Positions 19,449 through 35,948 of a stretch of 64,000 nt of DNA are shown here, in pieces. Position 1 is the stretch's first letter; the number at the start of each line of letters is the position of its first letter. The stretch comes from Bacteroidota bacterium (GTDB lineage: Bacteria > Bacteroidota > Bacteroidia > Cytophagales > Cyclobacteriaceae), in NCBI GenBank assembly GCA_037200765.1, contig JBBCII010000003.1:1040741-1104740 (forward strand), read 5' to 3'. The position numbers and the translations under genes are program-made. Under the pieces are notes generated by a model. That model saw only the letters and a program-made list of their open reading frames with translations. It did not search any database and had not been told where the DNA came from.

Positions 19449-19456
19449 AAGCAACG

Positions 19457-19750
19457 ATGGCTCAACCAGCAGCAAGAATTGGTGATATGCATGTTTGTCC
19501 GATGATAGGACCACCCAGCGTTCCGCATGTTGGAGGATCGTGCATAGGTCCCGGCGCGCCAACTGTATTAATTGGAGGTATGCCCGCAGCGGTAATAGGA
19601 GATAACGCGGTTTGTACTGGTCCGCCCGACATGATCATAGCCGGATCGGCAACGGTTCTTATTGGAGGAAAACCTGCAGCGCGCATGGGAGATTCAACTG
19701 CACACGGCGGGTCTATCGTGCTGGGTGACTTTACTGTATTAATCGGATAA
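19457..19750 (+). CDS. PAAR spike tip (Afp10-like)
   Basis: Three PAAR-type repeats: PAARIGD, PAAVIGD, PAARMGD. Confidence 0.96.
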   Translation: MAQPAARIGDMHVCPMIGPPSVPHVGGSCIGPGAPTVLIGGMPAAVIGDNAVCTGPPDMIIAGSATVLIGGKPAARMGDSTAHGGSIVLGDFTVLIG

Positions 19751-19763
19751 TGTATACGCAGCA

Positions 19764-20171
19764 ATGAATACCGAACTAACATTTCTTGGAAGAGGCTGGA
19801 GCTTTCCGCCGACGTTTAACGACAAACGTGCTGTGACTATGGTTGCGTATGAGGAAGATATCGTGCAGAGTTTGAAAATCCTTCTTTCGACACGACCAGG
19901 CGAGCGGGTGATGCTACCACGATACGGATGTAGTCTCGATGTCTTGCTGTTTGAACCAATTACTACCAGCTCGATCGCTTACGTAAAAGACCTGATCAAG
20001 ACCGCAGTTCTATACTACGAGCCACGAATTGAAGTTGAAGCGATTTCAATCAATACAGTGGATGTGGACGATGGCTTGATCATGATCGAGCTCAGTTACG
20101 TGATCCTGGCTACGAACTCACGATTCAACCTGGTTTACCCATTCTATATCAACGAGGGCAGTATAGTGTAA
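19764..20171 (+). CDS. GPW/gp25 baseplate protein (Afp9-like)
   Basis: FLGRGWSFPP, DIVQSLKILLSTRPGERVM.PRYGC, YEPRI, NSRFNLVYPFY. Confidence 0.95.
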   Translation: MNTELTFLGRGWSFPPTFNDKRAVTMVAYEEDIVQSLKILLSTRPGERVMLPRYGCSLDVLLFEPITTSSIAYVKDLIKTAVLYYEPRIEVEAISINTVDVDDGLIMIELSYVILATNSRFNLVYPFYINEGSIV

Positions 20172-23100: not shown

Positions 23101-23405
23101 TGTTGTTCCACTTGAACTCACTTGGCGATAAATCACCGAAGATTATCGGCAAGATGAAAGTGGGGAGAACGTTTGTTGTTGCTAGAACTCCAATGCCGAA
23201 CCTGGGAGGGATGCAAATCGGGGAGAATTTTATTGTTGGATTGGACATGGAGGTGATTGAACCATCACGTGATGAAGCGATGCTGGTATCGGTGCCGAAG
23301 CATGCAATCAAAACAACAGATGATCAGCGAACATGTTCCGGAGTATCAGGCTTAGGCATCGGAAGTATGACTATCAACTTTGATTTTATTGTAAGCAGAA
23401 GTTAA
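20172..23405 (+). CDS. Baseplate wedge, J/gp6-like (Afp11-like), 1077 aa
   Basis: HLEFFYKNVL, RVSERLRHRNRAIHTWDFERMVL, FISPWAF, IENLPYVDYV. Confidence 0.92.
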   Translation: MEDLRIIYRQLLRSDGVDQLQRLMTALKEEYVQLDDRSVAGYIRYLYQLSKEVRFLNPDLSYANTWEPLFARFLDGAATPTLVSDEKIEQISGDKNIEPALALLITFLELIQESKTSINKAIRKHLEFFYKNVLKFQILSGVADRVQLLFELNKNASPVSIVAGTLFEAGKGPDGNELRYATTSDIVVNRARVASIRSLFVEREKTNNTFQLWSEVHDVLPPTAILPPFGRPQSKQPPATRTMQYAVTGFVISSSLLELSGGERVIDIEMTSESFALDIVTFDDFRSYIQFELTGEKGWVTPLLRSVATDYVEVNNTRICTLKIQLALGEASPAIIPHSNAVHKTALPDGVPALRMITVPEKSVSEFFQAVRISSVSLKVSVKGLRKFVVQNEEGLQQPDKPFNLFGSIPAIGSRLYVGSNEVFSKNLKGLTINIKWKSPPANFNKYYAGYMLPSTFSHAEFSMSVDMLMNGSWDHTLSGRSSLFDAQNEDYPYTLALNETDLARANNFSALTRDQNVGDVSGGFRPGAGRGFIRFTLTGPKYDDFSAFGHSNFTSALMEATAAKIQFPAADIKLPQPAYTPQVKEISLDYVASDTIFPGTNDRVFHQTPFGIREVTTKGTSLFPQFAEVGYLHIGVSDLLLEQQVNLLLKLAETGLTKIESDSDDFAVPDVSWSYLANENWIDLRQDQIPVDTTKQFQQTGIVSLQTGADASINNNSFPAGMIWLRATLRQGTGRVLPLESIHTQVVEALLTLSNDEELSDYSIHLSAGLPPNSVKKNVRISPALKSILQPYASVGGVQPETSDHLIARVSERLRHRNRAIHTWDFERMVLNAFNEIAKAKCLTVRDELTQGTSTVIVVPKIRIDQPVSRRLQPKASSFFLDEIGTFFKARASAFTEVVVINPRYEEVLADFKVKFRVGYDPIYYLEKLNEEIVRFISPWAFGDQSDMHFDSIVYRSEVLYHIENLPYVDYVADFMLFHLNSLGDKSPKIIGKMKVGRTFVVARTPMPNLGGMQIGENFIVGLDMEVIEPSRDEAMLVSVPKHAIKTTDDQRTCSGVSGLGIGSMTINFDFIVSRS

Positions 23406-23429
23406 CAGACAAATAAATAACACAGTGTT

Positions 23430-24494
23430 ATGGAAAAGCAAAGGTCCGAATTGAAGTTCATGTTCCGCGATGGTGCACGCCCGAACGGAAATGATTTCAG
23501 TGATATGTTAGAGTCGTTCATTCATCGCTCGGATGATGGCCTTACTTTGAGTGCCAGAGGGGCTTTGGTCAACAATTTTACGTTAGGAAACTTCAATGCA
23601 ACTCCGGTGGCTGGATCTATGAAGTTTCTTGCAGGCGAGATCTATTTCTTCGACGGAACGAACTGGAAGAATGTGAGCTCAAACGATCTCGGCTTTCGAA
23701 GGCTTAGTCCGGCTCCGTCGACCGCTGCTGCTCCGGATGCGGCTTACTTTGGAAAGGTTGGGATTAATCTTGGCACTGCTCCGCCCGCCACCCTTGATTA
23801 TGATCTTGAGATTGGCCCGCGAAATGCTGCCGCCAGAATGCGTTCCGGTACCGCATTCATAGGCAATGGCAGTACGTCCGGTCGTGCCTATTTTTCTCAC
23901 AGCAGTTTGAGCAGCAATATCAATGCTAACTACGGCCTGGCTCAGGATACAAACGGAGCAGTATTTATCAACGTCCCTTCGAACAGCCAAGGCGTAACCT
24001 TCGGTACCGGAGATCAGGGACAGCTACTAATTAAGAATGGTCGAATAGTTGTCGGTAACACCATCGCACTAACACCCAATCCAAATCCGCCTGCTACAAA
24101 CCCGACGGATCAGATCATGCTTCATTGTCATGGTCATGCCATAAAGAGCTCTGGTGGAGCCGCGTGGCTCGTAACATCCGACATACGCACGAAAAAAGAT
24201 GTCGCAAAATTTGCCGACGGCCTCGACAAAGTACGAGCATTAAATGCGATCCGTTTCCGGTACAATGGCAAAGGAGGAACAAAAGATGGACAGGAGCAGA
24301 TCGGTCTCTCCGGACAGGATGTCGAAAAAATTATGCCTTATATGGTAACACGTCTTGGCAACAAGACAGCCGATGAAGGTGCCGAAAATTATCCCGACGA
24401 CATGATAGTGCTCGACTCGAGTCCTCTCATCTATGTCCTTCTTAATGCAGTCCAGGAACTCGACAAAAAATTAACATCAATAGAAACAGCTTAA
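23430..24494 (+). CDS. Tail fibre (Afp13-like) with C-terminal intramolecular chaperone (Peptidase S74-like)
   Basis: N-terminal fibre-base motif RSELKFMFRDGARPNGNDFSDMLESF; SDIRTKKD cleavage motif, IGLSGQDVEKIMP, terminal coiled coil. Confidence 0.85.
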   Translation: MEKQRSELKFMFRDGARPNGNDFSDMLESFIHRSDDGLTLSARGALVNNFTLGNFNATPVAGSMKFLAGEIYFFDGTNWKNVSSNDLGFRRLSPAPSTAAAPDAAYFGKVGINLGTAPPATLDYDLEIGPRNAAARMRSGTAFIGNGSTSGRAYFSHSSLSSNINANYGLAQDTNGAVFINVPSNSQGVTFGTGDQGQLLIKNGRIVVGNTIALTPNPNPPATNPTDQIMLHCHGHAIKSSGGAAWLVTSDIRTKKDVAKFADGLDKVRALNAIRFRYNGKGGTKDGQEQIGLSGQDVEKIMPYMVTRLGNKTADEGAENYPDDMIVLDSSPLIYVLLNAVQELDKKLTSIETA

Positions 24495-24505
24495 CCATTT
24501 ATACC

Positions 24506-24700
24506 ATGAATGATCAACTCGAAATACGGATCTCTACTGCCGAAGCAGGAGTAATCTTTGGAGCACTCAGCAATCTTCCATACATACAAGTGCATGAGCT
24601 CATCCACAACCTCCAAAACCAGATAGGTCCACAGCTCGCCGAAAAGGAAAAACAGAAGAATCTCAATAGCACAGCGCAATCTGAGATGAAGACTGCATGA
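24506..24700 (+). CDS. Small helical protein, possible fibre assembly chaperone
   Basis: 64 aa, GALSNLPYIQVHELIHNLQNQ; stop overlaps the next start (ATGA at 24697). Confidence 0.55.
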   Translation: MNDQLEIRISTAEAGVIFGALSNLPYIQVHELIHNLQNQIGPQLAEKEKQKNLNSTAQSEMKTA

Positions 24701-27531
24701 GCCAGGAGATCCAGGCATTTATTTCGGACGGTGTCGATTCTGTAGATCAGGATTACGCCGCGTTACGCCAGAAAGCGATTGAAAAAATTCAGTCACTGTC
24801 TGGACAAACGTGGACTGATCACAACGCTCACGATGTCGGGATCACGGCAATAGATGCACTGTGCTTTGCTATAACCGAGCAGGGCCATCTTAATAATTTA
24901 TCTACCGAAGACCTTCTGAAATTATATGGATCGGAAGATGCCACGACAAGAGACTTTTTTGGCGCAGAGGTTGTTCTGCATAACGATCCGGTTACGTTGC
25001 TTGACTGGCGTAAATTCCTGATCGATCGCACCGACATACGAAATGCATGGTTGAATCCAATCACGGGTAATACAGCGCCGCAGTTGCTGTTGAAAAATAA
25101 TCAATACTCTTTGGCCGATGGCGTGCAAGTAAAATTGAAGGGCTTGTACGATGTATTGATAGAATGGGAGAACGTGCCATCTCTCGGCGAGCTCAACGGT
25201 AATATGATCATGGCTTCGGTAACCGTTGCCCTTCCAAACGGTGTTCAAAAATCATATCGGGCCGACATCACATTTCCATTTGGATGGGATACCGAGGACG
25301 CCAATTTTAAAGCTTTCAGGAACAAGCTCAACATATTTGCCATCACAGCAACGACTGGTTTTGTCCAGCCAAAGCTGGAGCAGATGGGAATTGGCTCGAA
25401 TACGTACTTTTCCGATCTCCTGATCCATTTATCACCAGTATCAGCAATCACTGTTGGTATTATCCTTCGTATCAATACGGAGATCACCAGTGAATTAGAG
25501 CGTAGCATCGTTGAATCCAGATTCGGAGCATTGCTTTCAGCTAACCCTGGAGTTGTTAGTCTTTACAATGACATCGTCGTTAAAGGTTATTCACTTTCAC
25601 AAACAACCAGGGCCCTTTTATCAGCGAAACGAAACCTGGCCGAAGATTTTGTTGCGCTTCGCGCAATCAGTATTCAGGAGATCGCTATTCAAGCAGAGAT
25701 CGATCTCGTTCCCGGTTCGCCAGTCGAAGACATTCTTGCGGAGATGTTTCTCACCTTAGATAGGTTTATCAGTCCTCAATTTCATTTCGAGCCGTATGAG
25801 AATGAAACGCGTGAAGGACCGAAATTGGTAAATGGCTATTTAAGTGATGAACAGTTGACCGGCGCACCGGGGAGAAGCATTTTTCTTTCCGATTTGTTGA
25901 ACATCATGCTGGAGAACAGTGACGGGAAGCGACGCGAACAGATCGTTGCAATATACAATCTCTCAATTCAGAGCTACATCAATAATAAAGAAGCCGGCAG
26001 AAGCCAGGAGAACTGCCTGCGGCTTGTTGATGATCCAGTTTATCGTCCACGTTTAAGTGTATTCAAGTCCCACATTGTTATAAACTCGCGGGATACTGTT
26101 GTGCCTTACGATATCAATAAGGTCTTCAGTAAGTATCTCGCTCTAAAGAATACTGTACCCGCAAGTACAACAGTTTCATCTGTCGCTACCCTGCCAGACA
26201 TGAGTGTTGTAAAGCCCTTGCCCGGGTATCACCCGGTACAATATGAGTTTCCGGCATTCTATCATCTTTCGTTGCCCAGCAATACTGCGATCAACCTGCA
26301 GATGCGCGGTTATCTTTTTTTCTTCGAACAAGTGCTTGCAAATGCTTCAAGTCTACTAAGAAATTCTCCGAAGCTTCTTTCAATTGGTAACAACGACCTA
26401 GAAACCAGTTACCCCGCAAACCTGCGTGAGTTACTTCCTTTTTACAACGACTATCTTAATCCTTCGTATGAGTCGGCGCTCGCAACGAGCACGTCGGCCA
26501 ACGAAGCACGGAGGAGCTTGATGCTCGATCATTTACTTGCGAGGCTGGGAGAGGACTTTCGGTATTTCGCTTCATGGAATTCACTCACTACAAGCCAGGT
26601 CAATACAGCGAAGTATAATTTCCTGAAAGCCCTGCCGGTATTAGCGGGTGCACGGTTTAAAGCATACGACTATAGTTCGCCTGCATGGAACACGATCAAC
26701 GTTTCCACAACAGAGCAAAAGCTCAAACATCTTCTGCAGTTGCCGGATATAACTCAGAAAAAATTATGGAGAGACCCATCGCCGAATTTCAATGTAGTTG
26801 CGACAGCCGGGCCAAATGTAACTTATGGTTTTCGCGTGACCGATGCGGCCAACACTCCACTGCTAAAGAGTGCAGCCGACACTTTTGAATTTCAATTTGA
26901 AGCGGAAGACAACGCTACAGATCTCATTCTGTACGGAAGAGAAATTGGCAACTACAATGTGATCAGAACGGGTGCGGTATTCAGCTTTGCTGTTGTCGAC
27001 CCCGAGAATTATACCATCGCTATTTCAGAGAATACTTTTGCCACATCGACATTGGCTGCGGCAGCCATTCAAAGTACTATCACGTTTCTCAAGCAGTGGC
27101 TTCCCCTCGAGGGATTACATATAGTAGAGAATATTTTATTGCGACCACAATTTTATTCGACGCCTGGTCTTTTCGATACTTTATTAACGATCCCGCTTTT
27201 GGAGGACGGTTCGATTTCTCCGGCCTTCGGGAACGACTTGTATTCACAACAAGTACTTGTTGTACTTCCACGTGGCGGTAATCGCTTCGGTAGCCCGGCT
27301 TTCCAGGATATAGCGCGTGAAGTGATCCGTCGCGAGTTTCCATCATGGATCAAAGTCCGGGTTGTGTGGCTGAACATATTTATGATGCATGAGTTTGAGC
27401 TTGCATACCAGTCTTTTGTTCAAACAAAGTCGAATAATGCAGCGACCGAAAGTGCAATGCGCTTGGCGAAGGGCGGTTTGGTGGATGCATTGAACAAAAT
27501 TTATCGATGGTTGAATATTGAGCTAAGATGA
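24697..27531 (+). CDS. Baseplate wedge (Afp12-like), 944 aa
   Basis: SGQTWTDHNAHDVGITAIDALCFAITE, RNLAEDF, QMRGYLFFFEQVLAN, HIVENILLRP, DLYSQQV, IRREFPSWI. Confidence 0.9.
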   Translation: MSQEIQAFISDGVDSVDQDYAALRQKAIEKIQSLSGQTWTDHNAHDVGITAIDALCFAITEQGHLNNLSTEDLLKLYGSEDATTRDFFGAEVVLHNDPVTLLDWRKFLIDRTDIRNAWLNPITGNTAPQLLLKNNQYSLADGVQVKLKGLYDVLIEWENVPSLGELNGNMIMASVTVALPNGVQKSYRADITFPFGWDTEDANFKAFRNKLNIFAITATTGFVQPKLEQMGIGSNTYFSDLLIHLSPVSAITVGIILRINTEITSELERSIVESRFGALLSANPGVVSLYNDIVVKGYSLSQTTRALLSAKRNLAEDFVALRAISIQEIAIQAEIDLVPGSPVEDILAEMFLTLDRFISPQFHFEPYENETREGPKLVNGYLSDEQLTGAPGRSIFLSDLLNIMLENSDGKRREQIVAIYNLSIQSYINNKEAGRSQENCLRLVDDPVYRPRLSVFKSHIVINSRDTVVPYDINKVFSKYLALKNTVPASTTVSSVATLPDMSVVKPLPGYHPVQYEFPAFYHLSLPSNTAINLQMRGYLFFFEQVLANASSLLRNSPKLLSIGNNDLETSYPANLRELLPFYNDYLNPSYESALATSTSANEARRSLMLDHLLARLGEDFRYFASWNSLTTSQVNTAKYNFLKALPVLAGARFKAYDYSSPAWNTINVSTTEQKLKHLLQLPDITQKKLWRDPSPNFNVVATAGPNVTYGFRVTDAANTPLLKSAADTFEFQFEAEDNATDLILYGREIGNYNVIRTGAVFSFAVVDPENYTIAISENTFATSTLAAAAIQSTITFLKQWLPLEGLHIVENILLRPQFYSTPGLFDTLLTIPLLEDGSISPAFGNDLYSQQVLVVLPRGGNRFGSPAFQDIAREVIRREFPSWIKVRVVWLNIFMMHEFELAYQSFVQTKSNNAATESAMRLAKGGLVDALNKIYRWLNIELR

Positions 27532-29084
27532 TAATGCGTGGCAACCATATCATCGATAAGCAAACTGTGGATCTATCTATTCAGCGCGTAGAAGATTTTC
27601 ATCCTGTGGCCGATAGATTGCAGGAGCTGCTGTATCACCAGGTGTATCCACAACTTTCGGATGAGATGGATCGGCTTTGTGACGATGAGAGCACCATAAC
27701 GATACAACGAGTGGAGATCGATCTTGGTGTGATCCGGTCGGTGGACGAAGCAAACATTGCGGATCTCATTGTCAGAGAGATCTCGAGAAAATTGCGATCG
27801 TCGATACAAATATTGGCAGGACGTTCGGTTGAGCACGGTGTAGCGATCGTGCAGTCGGACGTTTATTCCTGGCGTTTGTGGTGTAAGTATTTGAAAACCG
27901 GTGTGATGCCAAGTGGAGTGAGACCAGAGTTGAATCAGGAGGAATTGGAGAGGGTCTTATTGAAGGGAATTTCATCTTCGTATCGGGAAGAGATCATTAA
28001 CATCATTCGCGAAACATTAATCGATAAACACGCAGCGAAACGTTTGTCGATAGTATTCTCGCTGCAGTTCATCGAAGAGATCGCGATCGCAACATCCATA
28101 ATGATAGAGGATCATGTGGAGATCAAGCAAATGATCAGAGAGCTTGTTGCGTACACAAAGATCGATCATCTGGTTATTGAAAGAGTATTCTGGGAGTACT
28201 TATTGACAAACAGAGGAGATGATCCAACTATCTTCTTCGTAGGTTTCATCAATGCGTTGGTCTTGAAATATTCAAATAAAGATTGGCATGAGATCCTTAC
28301 TAAGTGGATGCAAGGTCGGTCCGAAAGCTCTCGCTCTATATCAAATCAGGGAAGTATAAATGCATTCTTAAAGTTATTGTTAAGTACAACAAGCTATTCT
28401 GATTTTCGGGAACTATCCAGGAAAGCATTCTCAGCTGTTGTCGATAAGATTTCTTCTTCGGCGTTTGAAGTCATTCAGAGCAAAGGAACGATCTCATTCA
28501 TGCCGCGCACTCAATCAAGTGATTCAGTTCGAAGTTCTACGAGTTCGCCACTATGGCGCGATCGCGACGCCGATTTAAAAGAACCTATTTATACAAAGCA
28601 TGCCGGCCTTGTCATAACCGCGTCATTTCTGCCTCATTTCTTCGAAGCAGTTGGGTTGATCAGGAATGATCGCTTCATCAACATTCATGCACAGGAAGAA
28701 GCCGTACGACTCGCTGGCTTTCTTGCAACTGGAGATGTAGGCATGAGTGATTGGGAATTGCTGGTGCCAAAGATCCTCTGCGGTTTGCCAATCGACCACC
28801 CAATTTCATCCGACGAAATATTAGACGATATGAAGCTGGACGAAGGCGTGACACTGTTGAGATCGATCATCAGTCATTGGAATGTGCTCGGCGATAGCAG
28901 TGTGGATGGGTTGCGACAAGGTTTCTTACAACGCGATGGAAAGCTAACTCAACAGGAAAATGGTGAATGGCTTTTGCAGGTGGAGAAGAGGACGATCGAT
29001 ATTTTGTTGGATCGCTTGCCGTGGGGTTTTGGTATGATCAGGCATTCATGGATGAGGGGAATGCTTACGACGGAATGGGTGTAA
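27528..29084 (+). CDS. Contractile injection system tape-measure protein (Afp14-like)
   Basis: HIIDKQTV N-terminus; C-terminal HAGLVI...FLPHFF...GLRQGFLQRDGKL...LQVEKRTIDILLDRLPWGFGMI..SWM. Confidence 0.9.
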   Translation: MIMRGNHIIDKQTVDLSIQRVEDFHPVADRLQELLYHQVYPQLSDEMDRLCDDESTITIQRVEIDLGVIRSVDEANIADLIVREISRKLRSSIQILAGRSVEHGVAIVQSDVYSWRLWCKYLKTGVMPSGVRPELNQEELERVLLKGISSSYREEIINIIRETLIDKHAAKRLSIVFSLQFIEEIAIATSIMIEDHVEIKQMIRELVAYTKIDHLVIERVFWEYLLTNRGDDPTIFFVGFINALVLKYSNKDWHEILTKWMQGRSESSRSISNQGSINAFLKLLLSTTSYSDFRELSRKAFSAVVDKISSSAFEVIQSKGTISFMPRTQSSDSVRSSTSSPLWRDRDADLKEPIYTKHAGLVITASFLPHFFEAVGLIRNDRFINIHAQEEAVRLAGFLATGDVGMSDWELLVPKILCGLPIDHPISSDEILDDMKLDEGVTLLRSIISHWNVLGDSSVDGLRQGFLQRDGKLTQQENGEWLLQVEKRTIDILLDRLPWGFGMIRHSWMRGMLTTEWV

Positions 29085-29130
29085 ATGTATTATAGAAAAA
29101 TTATTCTCTCAGATAATAAAATCCCTGTTT

Positions 29131-31419
29131 ATGAAAAACATACTTCTTTTTCGATCAGCAGTCGTGGTTCTGCTGCAGATAATGTTCATGTCCTTGGCTC
29201 AGGCACAGATCGTTTTTCCGACCTGGCCTTCGGGGACGCCGGCCTTCACTGACTTTTCTGAATCCGATGGGCTTGGAGGCACTAAAACCGGAAAGGAGAT
29301 AACGATCTTTAAAGGAACAGTATCTGTTACGTTTGATTTTAATTTCAGTGGTGGTTCAGGTACCGAAAGCTGGGTTGTTAATACACCAAGTTGTACCTCT
29401 GGGATGTGTCCAACACTTTCGCCGATCAGTTCTACAGGCGTTCTGACATTTACACCATTAAATGTCAGCACGTTGGAGTTTGGGCTTGAAGGCAATGTTG
29501 GTTCATCATCACAAACAATTCTGGTAAGAATCAAAATAGTCGACGGGCCGAACGCACCTCGCCAACCTATCGATCTCGTACTGGTTCTCGATCAATCGGG
29601 AAGTATGAGTTCTTATACCATTTCCCCAACAACCCGGTGGGACGCTCTCAAAACTGCTGTACTTTCTTTTATGACGAAGTTTGAAAACTTCGCTGTGATC
29701 GGTGATCGTGTTGCTATCACTTACTTCGACACACCAGTTGTGAACGGACTGGGCACTGCAATAGCGCCATTTACTCCTATCGTCCCTGGTGTAAAGGCCA
29801 CGGTGGCCACCAGCCTTAGTGGTCATGGTCCGGCAGATCTTACTGCGATGGGTGAGGGCCTTCTTGATGCAAAGGCTAAGCATGCCCTGTTAACAACTTC
29901 AACCAACCGGAAAGTAGTTTTGCTATTTACCGATGGCTATCAGAATGAGGGAAGACTCGTTACCCCCGGAGGCACTACAGTTGACGATGGTACTTCAATC
30001 AACAACAGTTCCGGCAGCATTAAAATTTATACTGTCGGTATCGGCGCCGCTGGATCATTGCCGGCTATACTCGCGTCTATCGCAAACAATAATCACGGCA
30101 CATTAAATTCTCCTGCCACAATATCATCCGGTAACGCATCATGGTCTACCCTAACTGGCAACGACGCAGTATTTGTTACCGACTTTGACAATGCTTTCAA
30201 ACAAATGCTCGAAGGATCAAGTCCGCAGATTGTTGGTATGACCGAAGGAACTATTCAATTTCCGTCGAACACGATTGATAGCGCAACGTTCGTAGTGAAC
30301 AAAGATGTCGACAAGCTCTTGTTCGAATTGTATGCGTCGCCAGCCGCGCAAGTGCGGATCTATAAAAATGGCATCGCGGTGACGCCGACACGCACCGATT
30401 CCGGACCTGGATACAGAACTTTCATTTTTGATTTCCCTCGAAGTGGTGTTGCTGCACAACCCGACGGAACATGGACCGTGATTACATCATTGCCCGGCAG
30501 CGGTGGAACAGCAACGCATGGAAATGTTGTGCGCTTCCAGTATTCCCTTATAGCAATGGTCGATGATCATCGGTTCGACTACACTTGTTCGCAAGGAGCT
30601 ACTTCATTCAAGTCGGGCGATGATTTGAAACCTACTGTCAACATTCACTATAACGGCACTGAAGTTACAAACGCAACTGTGCAAGCAGTTCTGTTAAAGC
30701 CGGGGCAGGATCTCGGAAACCTGTTGGCGACAACAAAAGTTACTCTCGGAACTCCACCAGCCACTGACCCCGGGTCCGCAGGCAATCAAAAGTATGATCA
30801 GCTTCTTAGCGACCCAGCTTTTCTCGCGAAGATGCTTCCGATCAATCAATCAATGACCCTTACTCATACTTCCGGTGGTGTGTATACTGCAACTCCGTTA
30901 AAGCTCGATACCACCGGTGTTCATAGAATAATTTATTTCATCAACGAAACACTCCCGGGTGGCGACATCATTCAGCGTCGCGAGGAGCAAACATTCTACG
31001 TTCAATTCAAAGACATAGACTTGCCCGCTTCCAATCCAATATTATCAGGCAGTGGAACATCATGGACTCTTACACTTCGTCCAGTGACTTTGCTTCATAA
31101 GTTTGTTGGTCCTGCATTTCAGCAAACATTTACGGTGACCAGTCCAGGTCTTGTGCTGAATGATTTGGTTGATGTTGGCGATGGAACTTATAAACTGAAT
31201 ATGACCGGCAGTCCCGATGACAACGTGAAGATCGCACTGCTCGACGTTCCCGTCTACACCGGGACATTGAGTGAGATCCAATGCTACGATCCTAACGCAA
31301 GCTTCTGGACAAAACTCGAATGCTGGTTGCTCAGCCTGGGAATTCCTCTCTGGTTGGCATCGCTTATCGTCGTTATCATCATATTGATCCTCGTGTGGTT
31401 ACTGAGAAGAAGAAGGTAG
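29131..31419 (+). CDS. Sec-exported vWA (MIDAS) protein with C-terminal TM anchor
   Basis: Signal peptide ending LAQA; DLVLVLDQSGSM, TAMGEGL, VVLLFTDG; C-terminus WLLSLGIPLWLASLIVVIIILILVWLLRRRR. Confidence 0.88.
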   Translation: MKNILLFRSAVVVLLQIMFMSLAQAQIVFPTWPSGTPAFTDFSESDGLGGTKTGKEITIFKGTVSVTFDFNFSGGSGTESWVVNTPSCTSGMCPTLSPISSTGVLTFTPLNVSTLEFGLEGNVGSSSQTILVRIKIVDGPNAPRQPIDLVLVLDQSGSMSSYTISPTTRWDALKTAVLSFMTKFENFAVIGDRVAITYFDTPVVNGLGTAIAPFTPIVPGVKATVATSLSGHGPADLTAMGEGLLDAKAKHALLTTSTNRKVVLLFTDGYQNEGRLVTPGGTTVDDGTSINNSSGSIKIYTVGIGAAGSLPAILASIANNNHGTLNSPATISSGNASWSTLTGNDAVFVTDFDNAFKQMLEGSSPQIVGMTEGTIQFPSNTIDSATFVVNKDVDKLLFELYASPAAQVRIYKNGIAVTPTRTDSGPGYRTFIFDFPRSGVAAQPDGTWTVITSLPGSGGTATHGNVVRFQYSLIAMVDDHRFDYTCSQGATSFKSGDDLKPTVNIHYNGTEVTNATVQAVLLKPGQDLGNLLATTKVTLGTPPATDPGSAGNQKYDQLLSDPAFLAKMLPINQSMTLTHTSGGVYTATPLKLDTTGVHRIIYFINETLPGGDIIQRREEQTFYVQFKDIDLPASNPILSGSGTSWTLTLRPVTLLHKFVGPAFQQTFTVTSPGLVLNDLVDVGDGTYKLNMTGSPDDNVKIALLDVPVYTGTLSEIQCYDPNASFWTKLECWLLSLGIPLWLASLIVVIIILILVWLLRRRR

Positions 31420-31435
31420 AAGCTTTCTGTAATCG

Positions 31436-34400
31436 ATGAAATCTTCCGAACATAAGGCATCTCCCAGTGCTTCAAAGGCGCAAGCCAACAAAAGCACGTT
31501 CTTCACAAAGAAGAAGGGAGAGGCTTTTGCCCGTGAGAATGATTCATTGATCCAACCCAAACTCTATGTTCATCCCTCTGCCGATTCGTTTGAACGGGAA
31601 GCTGACGCGATGGCAGAGCACGTCATGCAATCTCAACACTCGAATGAGGTCAACAAGCATTCAACAGTTAGCGACAACATAGGCCGGGTTCAAACGAAAC
31701 GACCATTCGATAGCCCAACCATTCTCGAAACAAACAGTGCTCACGATGATCCTGCGTTGCAACGAAAGGAGGCCGAAGGTCATAACAACGGATCGGAAGC
31801 ACCAGGAGGAGTCGAGTCAAAGCTGAACTCTTCGAAGGGTCATGGTTCTGCGTTGCCTGAAGAGACCCAATCGAAAATGGAATCGGGCTTCGGTAAAAAT
31901 TTCAGTCATGTAACTGTGCATAATGATCACCATGCTGCCGAGATGAATGAAGAGCTCGGCGCGCGGGCATTCACTTATGGTAACGACATCTATTTTAATA
32001 AAGGAGAATATAAGCCAAACACTTCGAATGGCGACCGGTTGATCGCTCATGAATTGACACACACCGTTCAGCAGGGCGGTGGCGTTCAAAAGAAATCGAT
32101 TCAAAAAGAGCCGAAGCAGAAAGATATCATTAAAGCATCGCCCGATGAGTTGTCGGAGGTGACTAAACCGGCTGCTGGCTATCTCGAGAAAAACAAGGGC
32201 GACAAAGTTCCAACAATCCATATCAAGCAGGCAAAGGCAAAGAAGTATTTATCGAAAGGCGATGTGTCGTGGCTTCCGGACCAGGTGTCGTTGCCAAAAG
32301 GAAAACGACATACGAAGCAGGCTGGTCTTTGGAAGGGCGACATTCGCGAAGAGGTTAAGAAGCAAATGGTGAAGCTCGCGGGCAACCCGACGGATTCGCA
32401 AAAACTATTTCAGCTGTCGCTCAAAGGAAAAAAGAAAGGCAAAGGTGCCAGGAAAGGAGAACCGGAAGGTGGAATGGTTGGAACCGTCGATCAACTTGCC
32501 GAAGAGGTGCTTGTTCCCTCCTGGAATGTTGGCGGAGGGACGGCGCTCTTCGATATCGAGCACATGGTCGACTGGCAGATCTGCGGGCCTTTAGCCGATC
32601 AGATCAAGAACCTGATCCTCCTGGACCGAAGGTATAACAGGCAGTTGGGCAACCAGGTACGCGACAACCTTCACACCGCCGTCAAAGCGATCTTCGAACC
32701 CTATCGAAAAAAATTCAAGATCAGTGACGACATCGGTTCGGTGTTGGATGCGCTACCCGCAATACTTTACAAGGCTGGGCTTACCTATACTAACGAGGAT
32801 CTTTCGCCGGATCAATGGTATTCAAATGTTGAATTAAAAACGACAGCCGATAGCGGCAATCCCTTCAAGGAAAAACTTATTACAGTCGACGATCCCGACA
32901 TTCCCGACGGTCATTTTCTTTTAATTACTTCTGACAAACGACCCGGCTATATCCTTCCGTTCGATCTCCCAAAGATGAAGATCGGCGCATTCAACATCGT
33001 CAGCGTTAAGCATAAGAACAATAAGCTTGAGTCGATCAAGGTAGAACCCATTCTCGAAGATGCCAGGAACACCCTAAGTAATTCGAAGAAGCAAACCCCG
33101 ATCGATTTACCATTCGACGACAAGGGCAAGAATACTTATAAGATAAAGAACGGCGACCTTAATCGCGCCTTTGCTGCCAATCTCAAGAGCTTCATCGGTG
33201 GGGTGAATGGCATGAGCCCGATTGAGTTCGCCGAACCCGAGATCGATGGACTGAACGTTAAGATCACAGGAAAGGTCATACCTACCATCAGCATCTTTAA
33301 AGATGTAGATATCACTTTCGGCTACGAAGACGGAATGTTTTTTATCCGGGCCGAGGTACCGTTAACGAAGCTCGCATCTTCTATTCCGAAGCCGTTCAAA
33401 GTAGATGCATGCAGTATTGTTATTGAGGCGAATTCTATCGATGGGCTTCTTATCGCTGGCTTCGCTGCATTCAGTATCGGCTCATTTGGCGAGGGAGAGA
33501 TCTTCGCGAAGAAAGGAAAGAATGTGGAGTTTGGCGGACGCTTCAACTTTAACAACAAATGGTTCGATCCGGCAGAGATCAACTTCGATTATAAAAATGG
33601 AAAGTGGGGTATAGGAGGAAAGATCGGCATTGGTGAAGGGAAGATCAAAGGTATCAGGCAAGCAACTCTTGCGGTAAAATATGCTAACGACACTTTCACA
33701 GCCGATGGCGATGCAACGCTCGATGTTCCGGGAATAAAGTCGGTAAAATTATCGGCGAGTTATGCCGAGGGTCAGGGCTTCAGGTTTATAGCCACCGCTG
33801 ACCTGAAGAAGATGCCTGGCATCAAGAGCGGTTCGGTAACCGTCAGTATTCTCTCGAAGAACGATGGGGACATAAAGCTCGGTGCGGCAGGTACAGCAGA
33901 GCCCGATTTTCCTAAAGTTCCAGGACTTACGGGCACCAGTCTCACCGTAAGCTACGACGATGGGGTATTCGAGATGCGGACGAAAGTCGGCTATAAGAAA
34001 GGCCGCTTTGATGGAACCGTCGAAGTTGGTGTTACCAATAAGAACGTCGATGAAAAAGGTCAACCAACTGGTGAAGCACAGAAGGGTGATAATGTAGTTG
34101 TCTTTGGCTATGGAAGTCTTACGGTCGATCTCTTCAAGGGAAGTAAAGGAACGATAAGTGTCCGCCTCACTCCGGACAAAAAATTACTGGCGGCTGGTAG
34201 CTTTACCATTCAAAATCTTAAACCATTCGGCCCCGGTGTCGACATCTTTAAAAAGATCGTCGAGTTTCCTTCTATTAAGATTCCGCTTGTTGGCGTTCCG
34301 GGTGTAAGCATCTTCTTTGAGATTTCGGGTGGAGCCTATTTCAAATTTGTATGGGATCCACTGGTGCTGAAAGAACTCACCATTGCGTTCACGGAAACCG

Positions 34401-35302
34401 ATATCAATGAGATTGAAACTGCCCAGGTAACGATCCATGGATCGATAGGATCGAAAGCAACTGCCGAAGCATATATGGAGGTGAAAGCGTCGCTTGGCGC
34501 TCAAGTATTGATTGCGGAAATCAAGGGATCGCTCGCAGGCCAGGCTGGTATTGGTGTTGAAGCGGAAGCAGGAGGTGAAGTGGACGCCACATGGAACAAC
34601 GACAAAGGTCTGCAGTTGAAACAGATCACAGCTTATGTAGCCGTTAACCCGAAGGCGATCTTCCGCCTCAAAGGCAGCGTTAGTGTAGATCTCGATCTGT
34701 GGATCACGACCGTCAATCTTTATTACAAAGAGTGGACGCTTGCAGAAGGCGCAGCCGACCTGAGTGGCCTTGCATTGAAAGTAAATTTCCCACTCAAGTT
34801 TGACGACAACGGTGACCTTATACGGCCCGGGTTCGATCAGCTCAGTATAGAGAAGCCAGACTTCTCAGGGGAGCAGGGTAAAGCAGCGTTGGACGGAGGA
34901 ATCAACGCAGATGCGAAAAAAGAACGCAAGCTGGCAAAGGACAAACTCCGTCAGGACATCGCGCGCGACATTCAGGACTCAACGAATGATGAAGATTTCT
35001 CGCCTTCGGAATACGCGAAGAAACTGCAAAAAAAATATAAAGACGATGAAGAGATGAAAACCTTCATTATGGATTCGGTAGAAGAAGAAGTAAAGACCAA
35101 AGAGTATCAGCAGTTCGAAGTATTCAAAGAAGAGATGAGAAAATCGCCACTTACGTTGAGTCGGAAAATGTCGAAGGCGATGCTGTTCAAGCTGTGGCGT
35201 GGACGCATCAGTCCAGGCGACTACTACGCCTTCATCGAAGAGCTCCAGGCAAACGAACAACAAAAACAAAACGCTGCAACTGCGGCACCAGCAACAGTAT
35301 AA
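31436..35302 (+). CDS. DUF4157 (eCIS core domain) cargo/effector with HNH-like motif and beta-rich C-terminal half
   Basis: IQPKLYV..SADSFEREADAMAE, ARAFTYGNDIYF..GEY, LIAHELTHTVQQ; DIEHMVDWQICG...NLILLDRRYNRQLG. Confidence 0.88.
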   Translation: MKSSEHKASPSASKAQANKSTFFTKKKGEAFARENDSLIQPKLYVHPSADSFEREADAMAEHVMQSQHSNEVNKHSTVSDNIGRVQTKRPFDSPTILETNSAHDDPALQRKEAEGHNNGSEAPGGVESKLNSSKGHGSALPEETQSKMESGFGKNFSHVTVHNDHHAAEMNEELGARAFTYGNDIYFNKGEYKPNTSNGDRLIAHELTHTVQQGGGVQKKSIQKEPKQKDIIKASPDELSEVTKPAAGYLEKNKGDKVPTIHIKQAKAKKYLSKGDVSWLPDQVSLPKGKRHTKQAGLWKGDIREEVKKQMVKLAGNPTDSQKLFQLSLKGKKKGKGARKGEPEGGMVGTVDQLAEEVLVPSWNVGGGTALFDIEHMVDWQICGPLADQIKNLILLDRRYNRQLGNQVRDNLHTAVKAIFEPYRKKFKISDDIGSVLDALPAILYKAGLTYTNEDLSPDQWYSNVELKTTADSGNPFKEKLITVDDPDIPDGHFLLITSDKRPGYILPFDLPKMKIGAFNIVSVKHKNNKLESIKVEPILEDARNTLSNSKKQTPIDLPFDDKGKNTYKIKNGDLNRAFAANLKSFIGGVNGMSPIEFAEPEIDGLNVKITGKVIPTISIFKDVDITFGYEDGMFFIRAEVPLTKLASSIPKPFKVDACSIVIEANSIDGLLIAGFAAFSIGSFGEGEIFAKKGKNVEFGGRFNFNNKWFDPAEINFDYKNGKWGIGGKIGIGEGKIKGIRQATLAVKYANDTFTADGDATLDVPGIKSVKLSASYAEGQGFRFIATADLKKMPGIKSGSVTVSILSKNDGDIKLGAAGTAEPDFPKVPGLTGTSLTVSYDDGVFEMRTKVGYKKGRFDGTVEVGVTNKNVDEKGQPTGEAQKGDNVVVFGYGSLTVDLFKGSKGTISVRLTPDKKLLAAGSFTIQNLKPFGPGVDIFKKIVEFPSIKIPLVGVPGVSIFFEISGGAYFKFVWDPLVLKELTIAFTETDINEIETAQVTIHGSIGSKATAEAYMEVKASLGAQVLIAEIKGSLAGQAGIGVEAEAGGEVDATWNNDKGLQLKQITAYVAVNPKAIFRLKGSVSVDLDLWITTVNLYYKEWTLAEGAADLSGLALKVNFPLKFDDNGDLIRPGFDQLSIEKPDFSGEQGKAALDGGINADAKKERKLAKDKLRQDIARDIQDSTNDEDFSPSEYAKKLQKKYKDDEEMKTFIMDSVEEEVKTKEYQQFEVFKEEMRKSPLTLSRKMSKAMLFKLWRGRISPGDYYAFIEELQANEQQKQNAATAAPATV

Positions 35303-35313
35303 CGACAAACATC

Positions 35314-35934
35314 ATGAGACAGAGAAGAGTACGTTCAAGGCACAAACCGTCGTTGGAAAGTCAACGGCCTTTCTTTGAAAAGAAGAGTGCAGAAGGCGAA
35401 AGCTTTTTCACTAAGACAAATGCAGTTCATCGGAAGGCTGACATCGGACACTCGAGTGATCCGTTGGAAGCCGATGCAGATAATGCAGCACAAAAGGTAA
35501 CTTCTCAGCAACAAGTTCAGAAGGCAGAGAAGAAAGAGGAAGAGAAGCCAGTGCAAAAGGCTGCGAAGCAGGAAGAAGAAAAACCTGTTCAGCGTAAAAT
35601 CGATCCCCGTCTCCAAACAGCGAAGGAAACAAGCAACGATGATGGCGGTCATGCGCCGACTTTTGAAACTTTACTTGCGGAACGCAAGGGCAGAGGATTT
35701 CCATTGCCGGATGACATTCGCATCGAGATGGAAAGAAAATTTGGAAGCAATTTTAGAAAGGTCAGGATCCACAATGATCCCGAAGCTTCTGCGATGTGTG
35801 AAACTATTAATGCATACGCGTTTGCCCACGGTTATGATATCTATTTTCAAAACGGATTTTACGATCCTTCATCGAGCGATGGTAAGGAACTGTTGGCGCA
35901 CGAGCTCGCGCACATTGTTCAGCAAAATGGTTAG
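35314..35934 (+). CDS. Stand-alone DUF4157 protein with no C-terminal payload
   Basis: DPLEADADNAAQKV, VQK-E-rich repeats, AYAFAHGYDIYF..GFY, LLAHELAHIVQQNG then stop. The likely start is ATG 35314; the track start 35194 overlaps the previous gene. Confidence 0.85.
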   Translation: MRQRRVRSRHKPSLESQRPFFEKKSAEGESFFTKTNAVHRKADIGHSSDPLEADADNAAQKVTSQQQVQKAEKKEEEKPVQKAAKQEEEKPVQRKIDPRLQTAKETSNDDGGHAPTFETLLAERKGRGFPLPDDIRIEMERKFGSNFRKVRIHNDPEASAMCETINAYAFAHGYDIYFQNGFYDPSSSDGKELLAHELAHIVQQNG

Positions 35935-35948
35935 TTAAAGATCCAACG

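What the first reader, a model, noticed from the sequence alone, without database searches (positions are those of the whole stretch)
32549..32650. HNH-like nuclease motif in the DUF4157 cargo
FDIEHMVDWQICGPLADQIKNLILLDRRYNRQLG fits the beta-beta-alpha-metal pattern (D/E)H..(W)Q..G.....NL.LL....N...G. It follows the DUF4157 domain and a Lys-rich stretch, consistent with a DNA/RNA-degrading toxin loaded into the tube. It sits mid-protein, unlike typical C-terminal toxin tips.
Basis: partly seen in the sequence, partly recalled or inferred. Interest (0 to 1): 0.72.

Follow-up and report, generated by a model that had tools for sequence, protein, structure and literature searches.

The report
HNH-like nuclease module in eCIS cargo
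A large protein in a phage-tail-like injection gene cluster carries a real, strongly conserved HNH-type nuclease active-site domain, and this domain is a fixed part of a widespread, unannotated cargo-protein family rather than a one-off toxin tip.

Summary
It is the core of a ~190-aa domain (aa 283-475).

- **Spread and conservation:** a profile search found the domain in at least 290 protein clusters. In 159 aligned copies, [D/E]375-H376, N392 and N401 are essentially invariant.
- **Predicted structure:** an AlphaFold model built on 100 sequences (pLDDT 91) gives strand-(short helix)-strand-helix. His ends strand 1, Asn precedes strand 2, and Asn sits in the first helix turn. That is the beta-beta-alpha-metal layout.
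- **Sequence signal:** Pfam HNH is the only recurrent weak hit (32 of 100 relatives, one above the curated cutoff). The only PDB profile hits are Cas8f-HNH fusions, at non-significant E-values. Foldseek found no match for the whole domain.
- **RHS relative:** hhalign (98% probability) links the core to the C-terminal tip of an RHS toxin that has an adjacent immunity gene.
- **Architecture:** disordered N-terminus, DUF4157, HNH-like domain, then a beta-rich region. This whole architecture is conserved. It sits between the tape-measure and AAA+ genes, as AlgoCIS Cgo2 does. Long relatives add separate toxin tips.

The nuclease reading is likely but unproven. "The toxin" is less certain.

The parts
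11490..37316 (+). eCIS gene cluster that provides the context. Order: Pvc16-type cap, sheath, tube, VgrG-like spike, baseplate J, fibre-like gene, CIS tape-measure protein, VWA protein, two DUF4157 genes, AAA+ ATPase.
   Evidence: Pfam hits. Pvc16_N 11490-12089; Phage_sheath 13325-15844; CIS_tube 16974-17687; Phage_base_V/GPD 17691-19448; Baseplate_J (weak) 20172-23405; CIS_TMP 27528-29084 (E=1.3e-98); AAA 35949-37316.
31436..35302 (+). Gene for the 1288-aa large DUF4157 protein (Cgo2-like scaffold) that holds the finding.
   Evidence: ORF. Full-length homologues at 42-66% identity.
31436..31840 (+). N-terminal region (aa 1-135). Low complexity, with the conserved FF..QPKL..P.D..E.EAD..A..VM block. 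Presumed loading sequence.
   Evidence: Conserved block visible in the alignments. The loading role is inferred from AlgoCIS Cgo1/Cgo2 deletion experiments (bioRxiv 10.64898/2026.05.27.728243).
31850..32083 (+). DUF4157 / eCIS_core zincin-like domain (aa 139-216). HExxH is at aa 205-209 (32048-32062).
   Evidence: PF13699 E=1e-30, 106 bits. HELTH is invariant in the family.
32282..32860 (+). HNH-like domain (aa 283-475): a ~190-aa alpha/beta domain built around the beta-beta-alpha-metal core.
   Evidence: AlphaFold2 on a 100-sequence alignment gives mean pLDDT 91.0 and pTM 0.84. The profile finds 290 cluster representatives. Invariant Q295, W299, G349, P361, W363 and G367 lie upstream of the core.
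32399..32473 (+). Lys-rich stretch (aa 322-346). It is a length-variable surface loop within the HNH-like domain.
   Evidence: aa 335-341 fall in insert columns occupied by only 13-35 of 163 homologues. This is among the two lowest-confidence 10-residue blocks of the model (pLDDT 75).
32549..32650 (+). The finding itself: the beta-beta-alpha-Me core (aa 372-405). Strand 1 is FDIEH, followed by a short inserted helix, strand 2 is LILLD, then the start of a long helix.
   Evidence: Translation. DSSP of the model: E90-94, H98-105, E111-115, H116-145, where model residue 1 = aa 283. hhalign to an RHS-tip HNH core gives 98.1% probability.
32558..32563 (+). E375-H376: predicted metal-ligand acid plus general-base histidine at the end of strand 1.
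   Evidence: [D/E] 159/159 and H 159/159. Aligned to the HH of the Cas8f-HNH motif.
32609..32611 (+). N392: predicted structural Asn of the H-N-H/N motif, immediately before strand 2.
   Evidence: 157/157 conserved. Position relative to strand E111-115 in the model.
32636..32638 (+). N401: predicted metal-binding Asn in the first turn of the helix. It takes the place of the last His of classical HNH, as in Cas9-type D-H-N-N sites (the Cas9 comparison is from my own knowledge).
   Evidence: 157/158 conserved. In a relative, Pfam HNH profile positions 12-42 of 47 align across this residue.
33233..34840 (+). Beta-rich conserved regions C1 and C2 (aa 600-1135). Function unknown. They contain long amphipathic strands.
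   Evidence: Local HMMs detect them in most family members. Period-2 hydrophobic alternation is seen in 39% of 11-residue windows, against 4.4% in shuffles. No Pfam or PDB match.
34841..35299 (+). C3: charged (Lys/Glu-rich) C-terminal tail (aa 1136-1288).
   Evidence: Conserved in closer relatives. In long relatives it is followed by a second DUF4157 domain and a toxin tip.
35314..35934 (+). Small DUF4157-only gene (206 aa, ATG at 35314). It ends right after its HExxH domain.
   Evidence: Sequence. PF13699 E=1.6e-28. 45% identical to the large protein over the DUF4157 region.
35949..37316 (+). AAA+ ATPase (Afp15/Pvc15/Alg15-type), the presumed cargo-loading ATPase.
   Evidence: PF00004 E=7.9e-26. 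The role is inferred from the PVC and AlgoCIS literature.

Best explanation
The 1288-aa protein belongs to a widespread, conserved family of large DUF4157 proteins encoded between the tape-measure gene and the AAA+ ATPase gene of extracellular contractile injection systems. That is the position occupied by the experimentally proven lumen cargo Cgo2 in AlgoCIS.

Its architecture runs in this order:
- a disordered N-terminal loading sequence;
- the DUF4157 zincin-like domain;
- a ~190-aa domain (aa 283-475) whose core (aa 372-405) is a His-Me-finger (HNH, beta-beta-alpha-metal) active site of the D/E-H...N...N type;
- ~650 aa of amphipathic beta-rich sequence;
- a charged tail.

Most likely mechanism (inferred): the AAA+ ATPase loads the protein into the tube through its N-terminus, and sheath contraction expels it into a target cell. 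The HNH-like domain then binds a divalent metal through E375 and N401, uses H376 as general base, and cleaves nucleic-acid phosphodiester bonds.

Shown here: the motif, its near-invariance, the beta-beta-alpha secondary-structure order in a confident model, homology to HNH cores including an RHS toxin tip, and the conserved architecture and synteny. Inferred: loading, delivery, catalytic activity, substrate and toxicity.
For: - **Motif and position:**
- **Family size:** 290 cluster representatives at E<=1e-3 and 89 at E<=1e-10. The module is nearly always at about aa 300-600, after DUF4157.
- **Invariant catalytic set:** [DE]375, H376, N392, N401, plus Q381 and G405.
- **Structure model:** AlphaFold2 pLDDT 91, pTM 0.84. 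The strand-helix-strand-helix order places His, Asn and Asn where HNH sites have them.
- **Pfam:** HNH is the only recurrent family in per-member scans (32/100). GmrSD_C hits 14/100 and every other family hits 2 or fewer. One relative scores 21.8 bits against the cutoff of 21.4.
- **PDB:** the profile hits only Cas8f-HNH fusions, aligned on the motif itself, but at E~1.1.
[quoted passage not shown] P0161 lies in a toxin/immunity cassette array, directly upstream of a T6SS_Tdi1_C gene; that this family acts as an immunity protein is from my own knowledge.
- **Synteny:** TMP, small DUF4157, large member, TPR, AAA in Mariniflexile. AlgoCIS has the same order and gene sizes: ALPR1_12700/12695/12690/12685/12680.
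- **Cargo evidence:** Cgo2 was shown to be lumen cargo (PMC8894135).
Against: - Foldseek found no solved or viral structure matching the domain (best E=2.0; Cas9 at E=4.4 is not significant).
- The window protein itself reaches only E=0.065-0.13 against GmrSD_C, and gives no HNH hit on its own.
- No immunity-like gene was recognised next to the gene. The Tdi1_C-like protein of the RHS locus has no relative in the window or in six related eCIS and scaffold loci L001-L006.
- Relatives with separate C-terminal toxin domains show that the scaffold can act as a carrier.
- In AlgoCIS, only Cgo1 was reported toxic on expression. Native or retargeted particles showed no toxicity. This would weigh against a potent toxin if Cgo2 carries this module.
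Confidence: 0.6

Rival explanations
1. The HNH-like domain is a conserved accessory part of a DUF4157 'carrier chassis' and not the toxic activity. It might bind nucleic acid or metal, help processing or release together with the adjacent zincin domain, or help refolding or translocation. Under this reading the damage to the target comes from the beta-rich C-terminal region or from separate toxin tips or genes.
For: - The whole architecture is conserved, unlike variable toxin tips.
- Long relatives append a second DUF4157 domain plus Ntox4 or a deaminase at the extreme C-terminus.
- Geller et al. noted 'linkers' of more than 1000 aa between DUF4157 and toxin domains.
- No immunity gene was found.
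- Native AlgoCIS cargo showed no toxicity.
- Many invariant residues lie outside the catalytic core: Q295, W299, G349, P361, W363.
Against: - The full catalytic set is invariant in ~159 divergent copies. Non-catalytic HNH derivatives would be expected to lose these residues (my own knowledge).
- To my knowledge no non-nuclease enzymatic role is established for His-Me fingers.
- The same core serves as an RHS toxin tip with an adjacent immunity gene.
- Most family members (median length 1230 aa) carry no other recognisable toxin domain.
Confidence: 0.25
2. The nuclease acts in the producer cell rather than in the target. For example, it could degrade producer DNA around the lysis event that releases the particles, or work during particle assembly.
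For: - eCIS particles are reported to be released by producer-cell lysis (Geller et al.).
- There is no immunity gene.
- The gene is a quasi-core, syntenic element of eCIS clusters.
Against: - The N-terminal loading-sequence architecture is shared with proven lumen cargo.
- AlgoCIS particles still assemble without Cgo1 and Cgo2; they are just empty.
- No data here point to a producer-side role.
Confidence: 0.07
3. The motif is a chance resemblance or a degenerate, inactive relic.
For: - The single-sequence pattern match is only mildly unexpected: 1 observed against 0.12 expected.
- There is no significant Pfam, PDB or Foldseek hit for the window protein alone.
Against: - Near-absolute conservation across 159 copies.
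- A confident model with the right secondary-structure order.
- A family-wide HNH signal.
- hhalign at 98% probability to an RHS HNH tip.
Confidence: 0.03

Closest known systems
AlgoCIS cargo protein Cgo2 (ALPR1_12690, 1228 aa) of Algoriphagus machipongonensis
   Same: - It is a large DUF4157 protein with a disordered N-terminus and is encoded between the tape-measure gene and the AAA+ gene.
- The Mariniflexile family member P0155 (1234 aa, HNH-like domain at aa 361-530) sits in a locus with the same gene order and near-identical gene sizes as AlgoCIS.
- Cgo2 is experimentally shown to fill the tube lumen.
   Different: - Cgo2's sequence could not be obtained, so the presence of the HNH-like module in it is inferred from synteny and size only.
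- The window lacks the TPR gene. Its small DUF4157 gene lies after the large one rather than before it, and has no C-terminal domain.
- No function or HNH domain has been described for Cgo2 in the papers read.
HNH endonuclease family (Pfam PF01844), His-Me finger superfamily; D-H-N-N variants as in Cas9 and Cas8f-HNH
   Same: - [D/E]-H at the end of strand 1, Asn before strand 2, and Asn in the first helical turn.
- GG/G after the His, and an NL.LL pattern.
   Different: - There are no CxxC zinc-binding pairs.
- A short helix is inserted between the two strands.
- The core is embedded in a ~190-aa family-specific fold with no Foldseek match.
- The window sequence itself scores below every Pfam threshold.
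Tox-HNH / Tox-HNH-CIDE (DHxxE signature) / Tox-DHNNK toxin domains of PVC-metallopeptidase polymorphic toxins (Zhang et al. 2012, PMC3482391)
   Same: - They have the HNH fold and are associated with the DUF4157 (= PVC-metallopeptidase) delivery marker.
- The family consensus VDHIVELQ contains DHxxE, and the D-H, N, N residues match the published signatures.
   Different: - Those domains are variable C-terminal tips, usually with immunity genes.
- This module is internal, fixed and part of a conserved scaffold, with no immunity gene recognised.
- Membership could not be tested because no model of those families matched or was available.
RHS-type polymorphic toxin tip P0161 (338-aa ORF in a toxin/immunity cassette array)
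   Same: - The 42-residue catalytic core aligns with 98.1% hhalign probability: DVDHIVELQLGG..NNLQALDKSVNRSFG.
- This shows that the same HNH subtype is used as a toxin, with a downstream Tdi1_C-family gene.
   Different: - Only the core is shared. P0161 has no DUF4157 domain.
- P0161 does not align with the N-terminal part of the 190-aa domain, and it has no beta-rich scaffold.
GmrSD_C / DUF1524 (PF07510) His-Me finger nucleases
   Same: The NLxLL....N segment gives the window protein's only Pfam hit (E=0.065). 14 of 100 relatives also hit this family weakly.
   Different: All scores fall below the 23-bit cutoff. The domain context is unrelated.
Pne1, the nuclease effector of MACs (Rocchi et al. 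2019, cited in PMC8894135)
   Same: It is a precedent for an eCIS delivering a nuclease from the tube lumen (reference seen; details from my own knowledge).
   Different: Pne1 lacks DUF4157. No sequence comparison was made here.

Membership tests
HNH / His-Me finger (beta-beta-alpha-metal) nuclease superfamily | Two strands followed by a helix, with the catalytic His at the end of strand 1. | tested here: met
   AlphaFold2 model (pLDDT 91): strand aa 372-376 (FDIEH), short helix aa 380-387, strand aa 393-397, helix aa 398-427. Only the secondary-structure order was available, so strand pairing was not checked.
HNH / His-Me finger (beta-beta-alpha-metal) nuclease superfamily | Conserved general-base His preceded by an acidic or His residue; a structural Asn; a metal-ligand His/Asn in the helix. 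| tested here: met
   [DE]375 159/159, H376 159/159, N392 157/157, N401 157/158 among aligned homologues.
HNH / His-Me finger (beta-beta-alpha-metal) nuclease superfamily | Significant sequence or profile match to a curated HNH model. | tested here: inconclusive
   The window protein gives no HNH hit; GmrSD_C scores E=0.065-0.13. Among relatives, 32/100 hit PF01844 weakly and one scores 21.8 bits against the cutoff of 21.4. The PDB profile search hits only Cas8f-HNH fusions, at E~1.1. hhalign to an RHS HNH-like tip gives 98.1% probability.
HNH / His-Me finger (beta-beta-alpha-metal) nuclease superfamily | Structural similarity to a solved His-Me finger protein. | tested here: not met
   Foldseek against PDB gave no match with E<1 (Cas9 6o0y_A at E=4.4, probability 0.03), and none against BFVD. 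The core is only ~35 residues of a 193-residue query, so this test has little power.
HNH / His-Me finger (beta-beta-alpha-metal) nuclease superfamily | Divalent-metal-dependent nuclease activity. | not testable with these tools
   Requires biochemistry.
GmrSD_C / DUF1524 (PF07510) | Score above the Pfam gathering threshold (23 bits). | tested here: not met
   13.6 bits (E=0.065) for an 80-aa piece, and 12.6 bits for the whole domain.
DUF4157 / eCIS_core-marked eCIS cargo (EAT; Cgo1/Cgo2 type) | PF13699 domain with HExxH. | tested here: met
   E=1e-30, aa 139-216, with HELTH at aa 205-209.
DUF4157 / eCIS_core-marked eCIS cargo (EAT; Cgo1/Cgo2 type) | Encoded within an eCIS operon next to the AAA+ loading ATPase. 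| tested here: met
   Gene order is TMP, VWA, large DUF4157, small DUF4157, AAA+. The same neighbourhood appears in L004-L006 and in AlgoCIS.
DUF4157 / eCIS_core-marked eCIS cargo (EAT; Cgo1/Cgo2 type) | Disordered N-terminal loading sequence. | not tested
   The N-terminal 135 aa are low-complexity and align with the family N-terminal block. No disorder predictor was run.
DUF4157 / eCIS_core-marked eCIS cargo (EAT; Cgo1/Cgo2 type) | Physical presence in the tube lumen of purified particles. | not testable with these tools
   Shown only for AlgoCIS Cgo1 and Cgo2.
Classical polymorphic-toxin C-terminal HNH tip (Tox-HNH and relatives) | Located at the extreme C-terminus, variable between otherwise similar proteins. 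| tested here: not met
   The domain lies at aa 283-475 of 1288 and is present at the same relative position in nearly all of the 155 family proteins examined.
Classical polymorphic-toxin C-terminal HNH tip (Tox-HNH and relatives) | Adjacent cognate immunity gene. | tested here: not met
   The downstream genes are a DUF4157-only gene and the AAA+ gene. There is no relative of the Tdi1_C-like protein of the RHS locus. Other immunity families were not searched for.

The most novel reading that the evidence does not exclude
The stretch described in the literature as a 'very long linker' after DUF4157 is really a conserved enzymatic chassis: zincin, then HNH nuclease, then an amphipathic beta-rich (possibly membrane-inserting) region. 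It is shared by hundreds of eCIS from several bacterial lineages and probably includes AlgoCIS Cgo2. On this reading, a catalytically intact HNH nuclease is a default warhead (or an obligatory processing enzyme) of this eCIS lineage, and other toxin tips are optional additions.
Probability: 0.35. Interest if true: 0.7.

Novelty: new variant of a known kind. Interest (0 to 1): 0.55.

Why it matters
- **A testable function for an unassigned cargo family.** DUF4157 proteins are the main marker of eCIS cargo, yet most have no assigned activity. The native function of AlgoCIS cargo is unknown, and no toxicity was found for native or retargeted particles. A conserved HNH-type active site in the Cgo2-like family gives a direct hypothesis that point mutants can test.
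- **A reinterpretation of the 'linker'.** It recasts the long stretch between DUF4157 and toxin tips as a conserved multi-domain scaffold.
- **An annotation gap.** The module is absent from Pfam and NCBIfam annotation; records name these proteins only 'DUF4157/eCIS core domain-containing protein'.
- **Relevance to engineering.** Groups adapting eCIS for protein delivery would want to know whether the native cargo scaffold has nuclease activity.

Tried and rejected
- **Word-indexed homologue searches.** A search with aa 219-667 found nothing. With the 4-sequence alignment it found only 5 proteins, and with the 100-sequence domain alignment only 3. The exhaustive HMMER search showed that the family is in fact large.
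- **PDB sequence searches.** Searches with the full protein and with the 6-sequence profile gave nothing relevant.
- **Pfam on the window protein's middle region.** Only a sub-threshold GmrSD_C hit.
- **First AlphaFold run.** With 6 sequences it was unusable (pLDDT 47.7). The second run, with 100 sequences, was confident.
- **Foldseek.** No significant match against PDB or BFVD.
- **Obtaining the Cgo2 sequence.** Cluster look-ups of ten similarly sized members found Mariniflexile and an Alteromonadaceae bacterium but no Algoriphagus. Viral-contig scans failed. Only gene coordinates were recovered, from a supplement.
- **C-terminal region C2.** Profile against PDB and Pfam gave only hints: CEL-III at E=0.24 and OMP_b-brl in 2 of 27 members. 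I did not build on these.
- **Immunity gene.** No relative of the RHS-locus Tdi1_C protein was found in the window or in the related loci L001-L006.
- **Rejected readings.** It is not a chance motif (conservation argues against it). It is not a homing-endonuclease insertion, because the module is present in nearly all family members at a fixed position. It is not a GmrSD family member, because the score is below the cutoff.
Full report
**1. The observation**

window:32549-32650(+) translates to FDIEHMVDWQICGPLADQIKNLILLDRRYNRQLG. This is aa 372-405 of a 1288-aa ORF at 31436..35302.

The ORF carries a DUF4157/eCIS_core domain at aa 139-216 (PF13699, E=1e-30; HExxH = HELTH at aa 205-209). It lies inside a complete extracellular contractile injection system (eCIS) cluster. 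The genes, in order, are a Pvc16-type cap, sheath, tube, VgrG-like spike, baseplate J, CIS tape-measure protein (E=1.3e-98), a VWA protein, this gene, a small DUF4157 gene and an AAA+ ATPase.

A generic HNH-like regular expression hits only this site in all six frames. Shuffled ORFs give 0.12 hits on average. That is suggestive on its own but not decisive.

**2. Relatives**

Word-indexed protein searches nearly failed. A genome scan gave three Bacteroidota/Chitinophagaceae MAG loci, and five full-length homologues were found at 42-66% identity. In all of them the motif is conserved, although the surrounding middle region is the least conserved part of the protein.

An exhaustive HMMER profile search with aa 262-535 against 1.84 billion cluster representatives found 290 proteins at E<=1e-3 and 89 at E<=1e-10. 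These proteins are mostly 1000-3400 aa long, and the match is almost always at about aa 300-600.

I re-aligned the 150 best hits, the close homologues and the window protein locally. Conservation was as follows:

| Position | Conserved in |
|---|---|
| H376 | 159/159 |
| [D/E]375 | 159/159 |
| [E/D]379 | 157/159 |
| Q381 | 156/158 |
| G384 | 138/159 |
| D388 | 112/140 |
| N392 | 157/157 |
| L395 | 156/158 |
| L396 | 143/158 |
| N401 | 157/158 |
| G405 | 155/158 |

Upstream of the core, Q295, W299, G349, P361, W363 and G367 are also near-invariant. The family signature is [DE]H-x2-[ED]-x-Q-x2-G ...

**3. Is it an HNH / His-Me finger?**

- **Structure prediction.** AlphaFold2 with six sequences failed (pLDDT 47.7). 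With a 100-sequence alignment of aa 283-475 it gave pLDDT 91.0 and pTM 0.84. The DSSP assignment gives a strand at aa 372-376 (FDIEH, with His last), a short helix at aa 380-387, a strand at aa 393-397 (LILLD, with N392 just before it) and a long helix at aa 398-427 (with N401 in its first turn). This is the beta-beta-alpha-metal order with a helical insertion in the hairpin.
- **Foldseek.** It found nothing significant in PDB or BFVD. Cas9 at rank 2 has E=4.4, which is not evidence. The 193-residue domain as a whole therefore has no close structural relative in those libraries.
- **Pfam.** Scanning the 100 members one by one, HNH (PF01844) was hit by 32 and GmrSD_C by 14, while no other family was hit by more than 2. 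In a focused scan, 9 of 10 mostly proteobacterial-type members had HNH as a hit (top hit in 8 of them). One scored 21.8 bits against the curated cutoff of 21.4, with profile positions 12-42 of 47 aligned across the motif.
- **PDB profile search.** The 100-sequence profile hit only Cas8f-HNH fusion proteins, aligned exactly on the motif ([24 protein letters not shown]), but at E~1.1.
- **RHS toxin tip.** hhalign matched the core (42 columns) to the C-terminus of P0161 with 98.1% probability and E=8.8e-14. P0161 begins with a sequence I read as an RHS-core tail (...YYPFGL...DPQIGRFIEIDP...); this is my reading, not a tool result. It lies in an array of toxin/immunity cassettes (NucA/NucB DNase, Imm26, a CDI toxin with CdiI, SUKH, Colicin-DNase/WHH), directly upstream of a T6SS_Tdi1_C-family gene; that this family acts as an immunity protein is from my own knowledge.

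Conclusion: membership of the HNH superfamily is well supported by residues, secondary-structure order and convergent weak-to-threshold profile signals. Relative to classical HNH, the site lacks the CxxC zinc pairs and ends in Asn rather than His. That is the D-H-N-N arrangement known from Cas9-type HNH domains (my own knowledge). The DHxxE signature in the family consensus is the one Zhang et al. give for the Tox-HNH-CIDE clade (PMC3482391). I could not test membership of that clade.

**4. What the whole protein is**

Local HMMs built from the full-length alignment show that most of the 155 family proteins examined share the entire architecture: N-terminal block, DUF4157, HNH-like domain, (mid), C1 (aa 600-850), C2 (aa 850-1135) and sometimes C3. 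The HNH-like domain is therefore a fixed internal module and not a variable tip.

The Lys-rich stretch (aa 322-346) is a length-variable, lower-confidence loop inside the domain.

Twenty-five relatives are 1800 aa or longer. In those checked, the scaffold is followed by one of:
- a second DUF4157 domain and a further region, for example Ntox4 at the C-terminus of P0023;
- a C-terminal XOO_2897-type deaminase (P0011);
- a complete tandem copy of the scaffold (P0015, P0017).

They match, and explain, the remark of Geller et al. that DUF4157 and toxin domains are sometimes separated by 'linkers' of more than 1000 aa.

**5. Genomic context and the link to proven cargo**

Family members from an Alteromonadaceae bacterium, from assembly GCA_004173355.1 and from Mariniflexile sp. 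AS56 all lie in eCIS clusters next to CIS_TMP and/or AAA genes.

| Gene | Mariniflexile | AlgoCIS |
|---|---|---|
| Tape-measure | TMP, 510 aa | ALPR1_12700 (afp14) |
| Small DUF4157 | eCIS_core, 282 aa | ALPR1_12695 (Cgo1) |
| Large DUF4157 | P0155, 1234 aa, HNH-like domain at aa 361-530 | ALPR1_12690 (Cgo2), 1228 aa |
| TPR | 289 aa | ALPR1_12685, 289 aa |
| AAA | 433 aa | ALPR1_12680, 435 aa |

The AlgoCIS order comes from the supplementary gene table of Geller et al. The AlgoCIS TPR and AAA lengths are calculated from the gene coordinates in that table. Cgo2 is thus the positional counterpart of a confirmed family member.

Cgo1 and Cgo2 were shown by cryoET and mass spectrometry to fill the tube lumen and to leave on contraction (PMC8894135). 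Their N-terminal regions are required for loading, while DUF4157 and the C-terminal part are dispensable for it (bioRxiv 10.64898/2026.05.27.728243).

I could not obtain the Cgo2 sequence, so the presence of the module in Cgo2 is inferred and not shown.

**6. Mechanism and its weak points**

The best-supported reading is a lumen-loaded cargo whose conserved HNH-like domain is a metal-dependent nuclease: H376 as general base, E375 and N401 as metal ligands, N392 structural. The near-absolute conservation of exactly these residues across very divergent copies, and the use of the same core as an RHS toxin tip with an adjacent immunity gene, argue for catalysis and for toxic potential.

Against 'the toxin':
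- the module belongs to a conserved chassis that can carry other toxins;
- no immunity gene was recognised;
- in AlgoCIS only Cgo1 was reported toxic on expression, and native or retargeted particles were not toxic to the cells tested.

Alternative roles cannot be excluded. The domain could be an accessory or processing enzyme working with the neighbouring zincin, or it could act in the lysing producer cell.

**7. Comparison and novelty**

HNH-fold toxins on DUF4157 (PVC-metallopeptidase) proteins are known as C-terminal tips (Zhang et al. 2012). An eCIS-delivered nuclease is also known (Pne1; reference).

What I found no description of is this internal, conserved HNH-like module directly downstream of DUF4157. 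Full-text searches returned four papers that mention both DUF4157 and HNH; judging by their titles, abstracts and one or two mentions each, none appears to concern such a module, and I did not open them. The eCIS papers I did read, which discuss DUF4157 proteins at length, do not describe it either. Pfam and NCBIfam have no model for it, and database names for family members are only 'DUF4157/eCIS core domain-containing protein'.

I rate it a new variant of a known kind. It is moderately interesting because it gives a concrete, mutationally testable function for the Cgo2-like cargo family.

Noticed in passing
window 33983-34840 (aa 850-1135 of the same protein), especially aa 994-1093: The conserved C2 region is built of long strands with strict period-2 hydrophobic alternation: 39% of 11-residue windows pass the threshold, against 4.4% in shuffles. 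There are weak hints to the pore-forming hairpin of the hemolytic lectin CEL-III (E=0.24) and to OMP beta-barrel models (2 of 27 members). It may be a membrane-inserting or translocation module, but nothing here is significant.
   Followed up: partly
window 35314-35934: The small DUF4157 gene (206 aa, true start ATG 35314, 12 nt after the stop of the large gene) ends immediately after its HExxH domain and has no C-terminal effector part. In long relatives, a second DUF4157 domain at the equivalent position is followed by a toxin tip. This gene may therefore be a 'tip-less' or truncated cargo.
   Followed up: partly
window 29131-31419: A 762-aa VWA-domain protein sits between the tape-measure gene and the cargo gene. 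It has a hydrophobic N-terminus resembling a signal peptide and a C-terminal hydrophobic stretch followed by RRRR. This is an unusual insertion in an eCIS operon. Locus L001 has a 1325-aa ORF at the same place.
   Followed up: no
window 42825-47255: A single 1476-aa ORF combines a full AcrB-type RND transporter (ACR_tran, aa 4-1017) with an outer-membrane-factor OEP domain (aa 1290-1473). This would be an apparent RND-OMF fusion, next to an HlyD-type adaptor gene (41717-42796).
   Followed up: no
P0015 and P0017 (relatives, 2408 and 2639 aa): These proteins contain two complete tandem copies of the scaffold (N-terminal block, DUF4157, HNH-like domain, C1, C2). They are either true duplications or fusions of two adjacent genes in the assemblies.
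   Followed up: no
L007 (ena:ERZ12298642 scaffold_198_c2), 1-13017: A dense array of orphan polymorphic-toxin tips with immunity genes: NucA/NucB DNase, Imm26, an HNH-like RHS tip with Tdi1_C, an EC869-like CDI toxin with CdiI, SUKH/SMI1, and Colicin-DNase/WHH. The HNH-like tip has no dedicated Pfam model.
   Followed up: partly
window 37587-38660 and 10270-11013: A zinc-ribbon plus Peptidase_Mx metallopeptidase gene lies directly downstream of the AAA+ gene. A LytTR-type response regulator lies just upstream of the cap gene and is a candidate regulator of the cluster.
   Followed up: no
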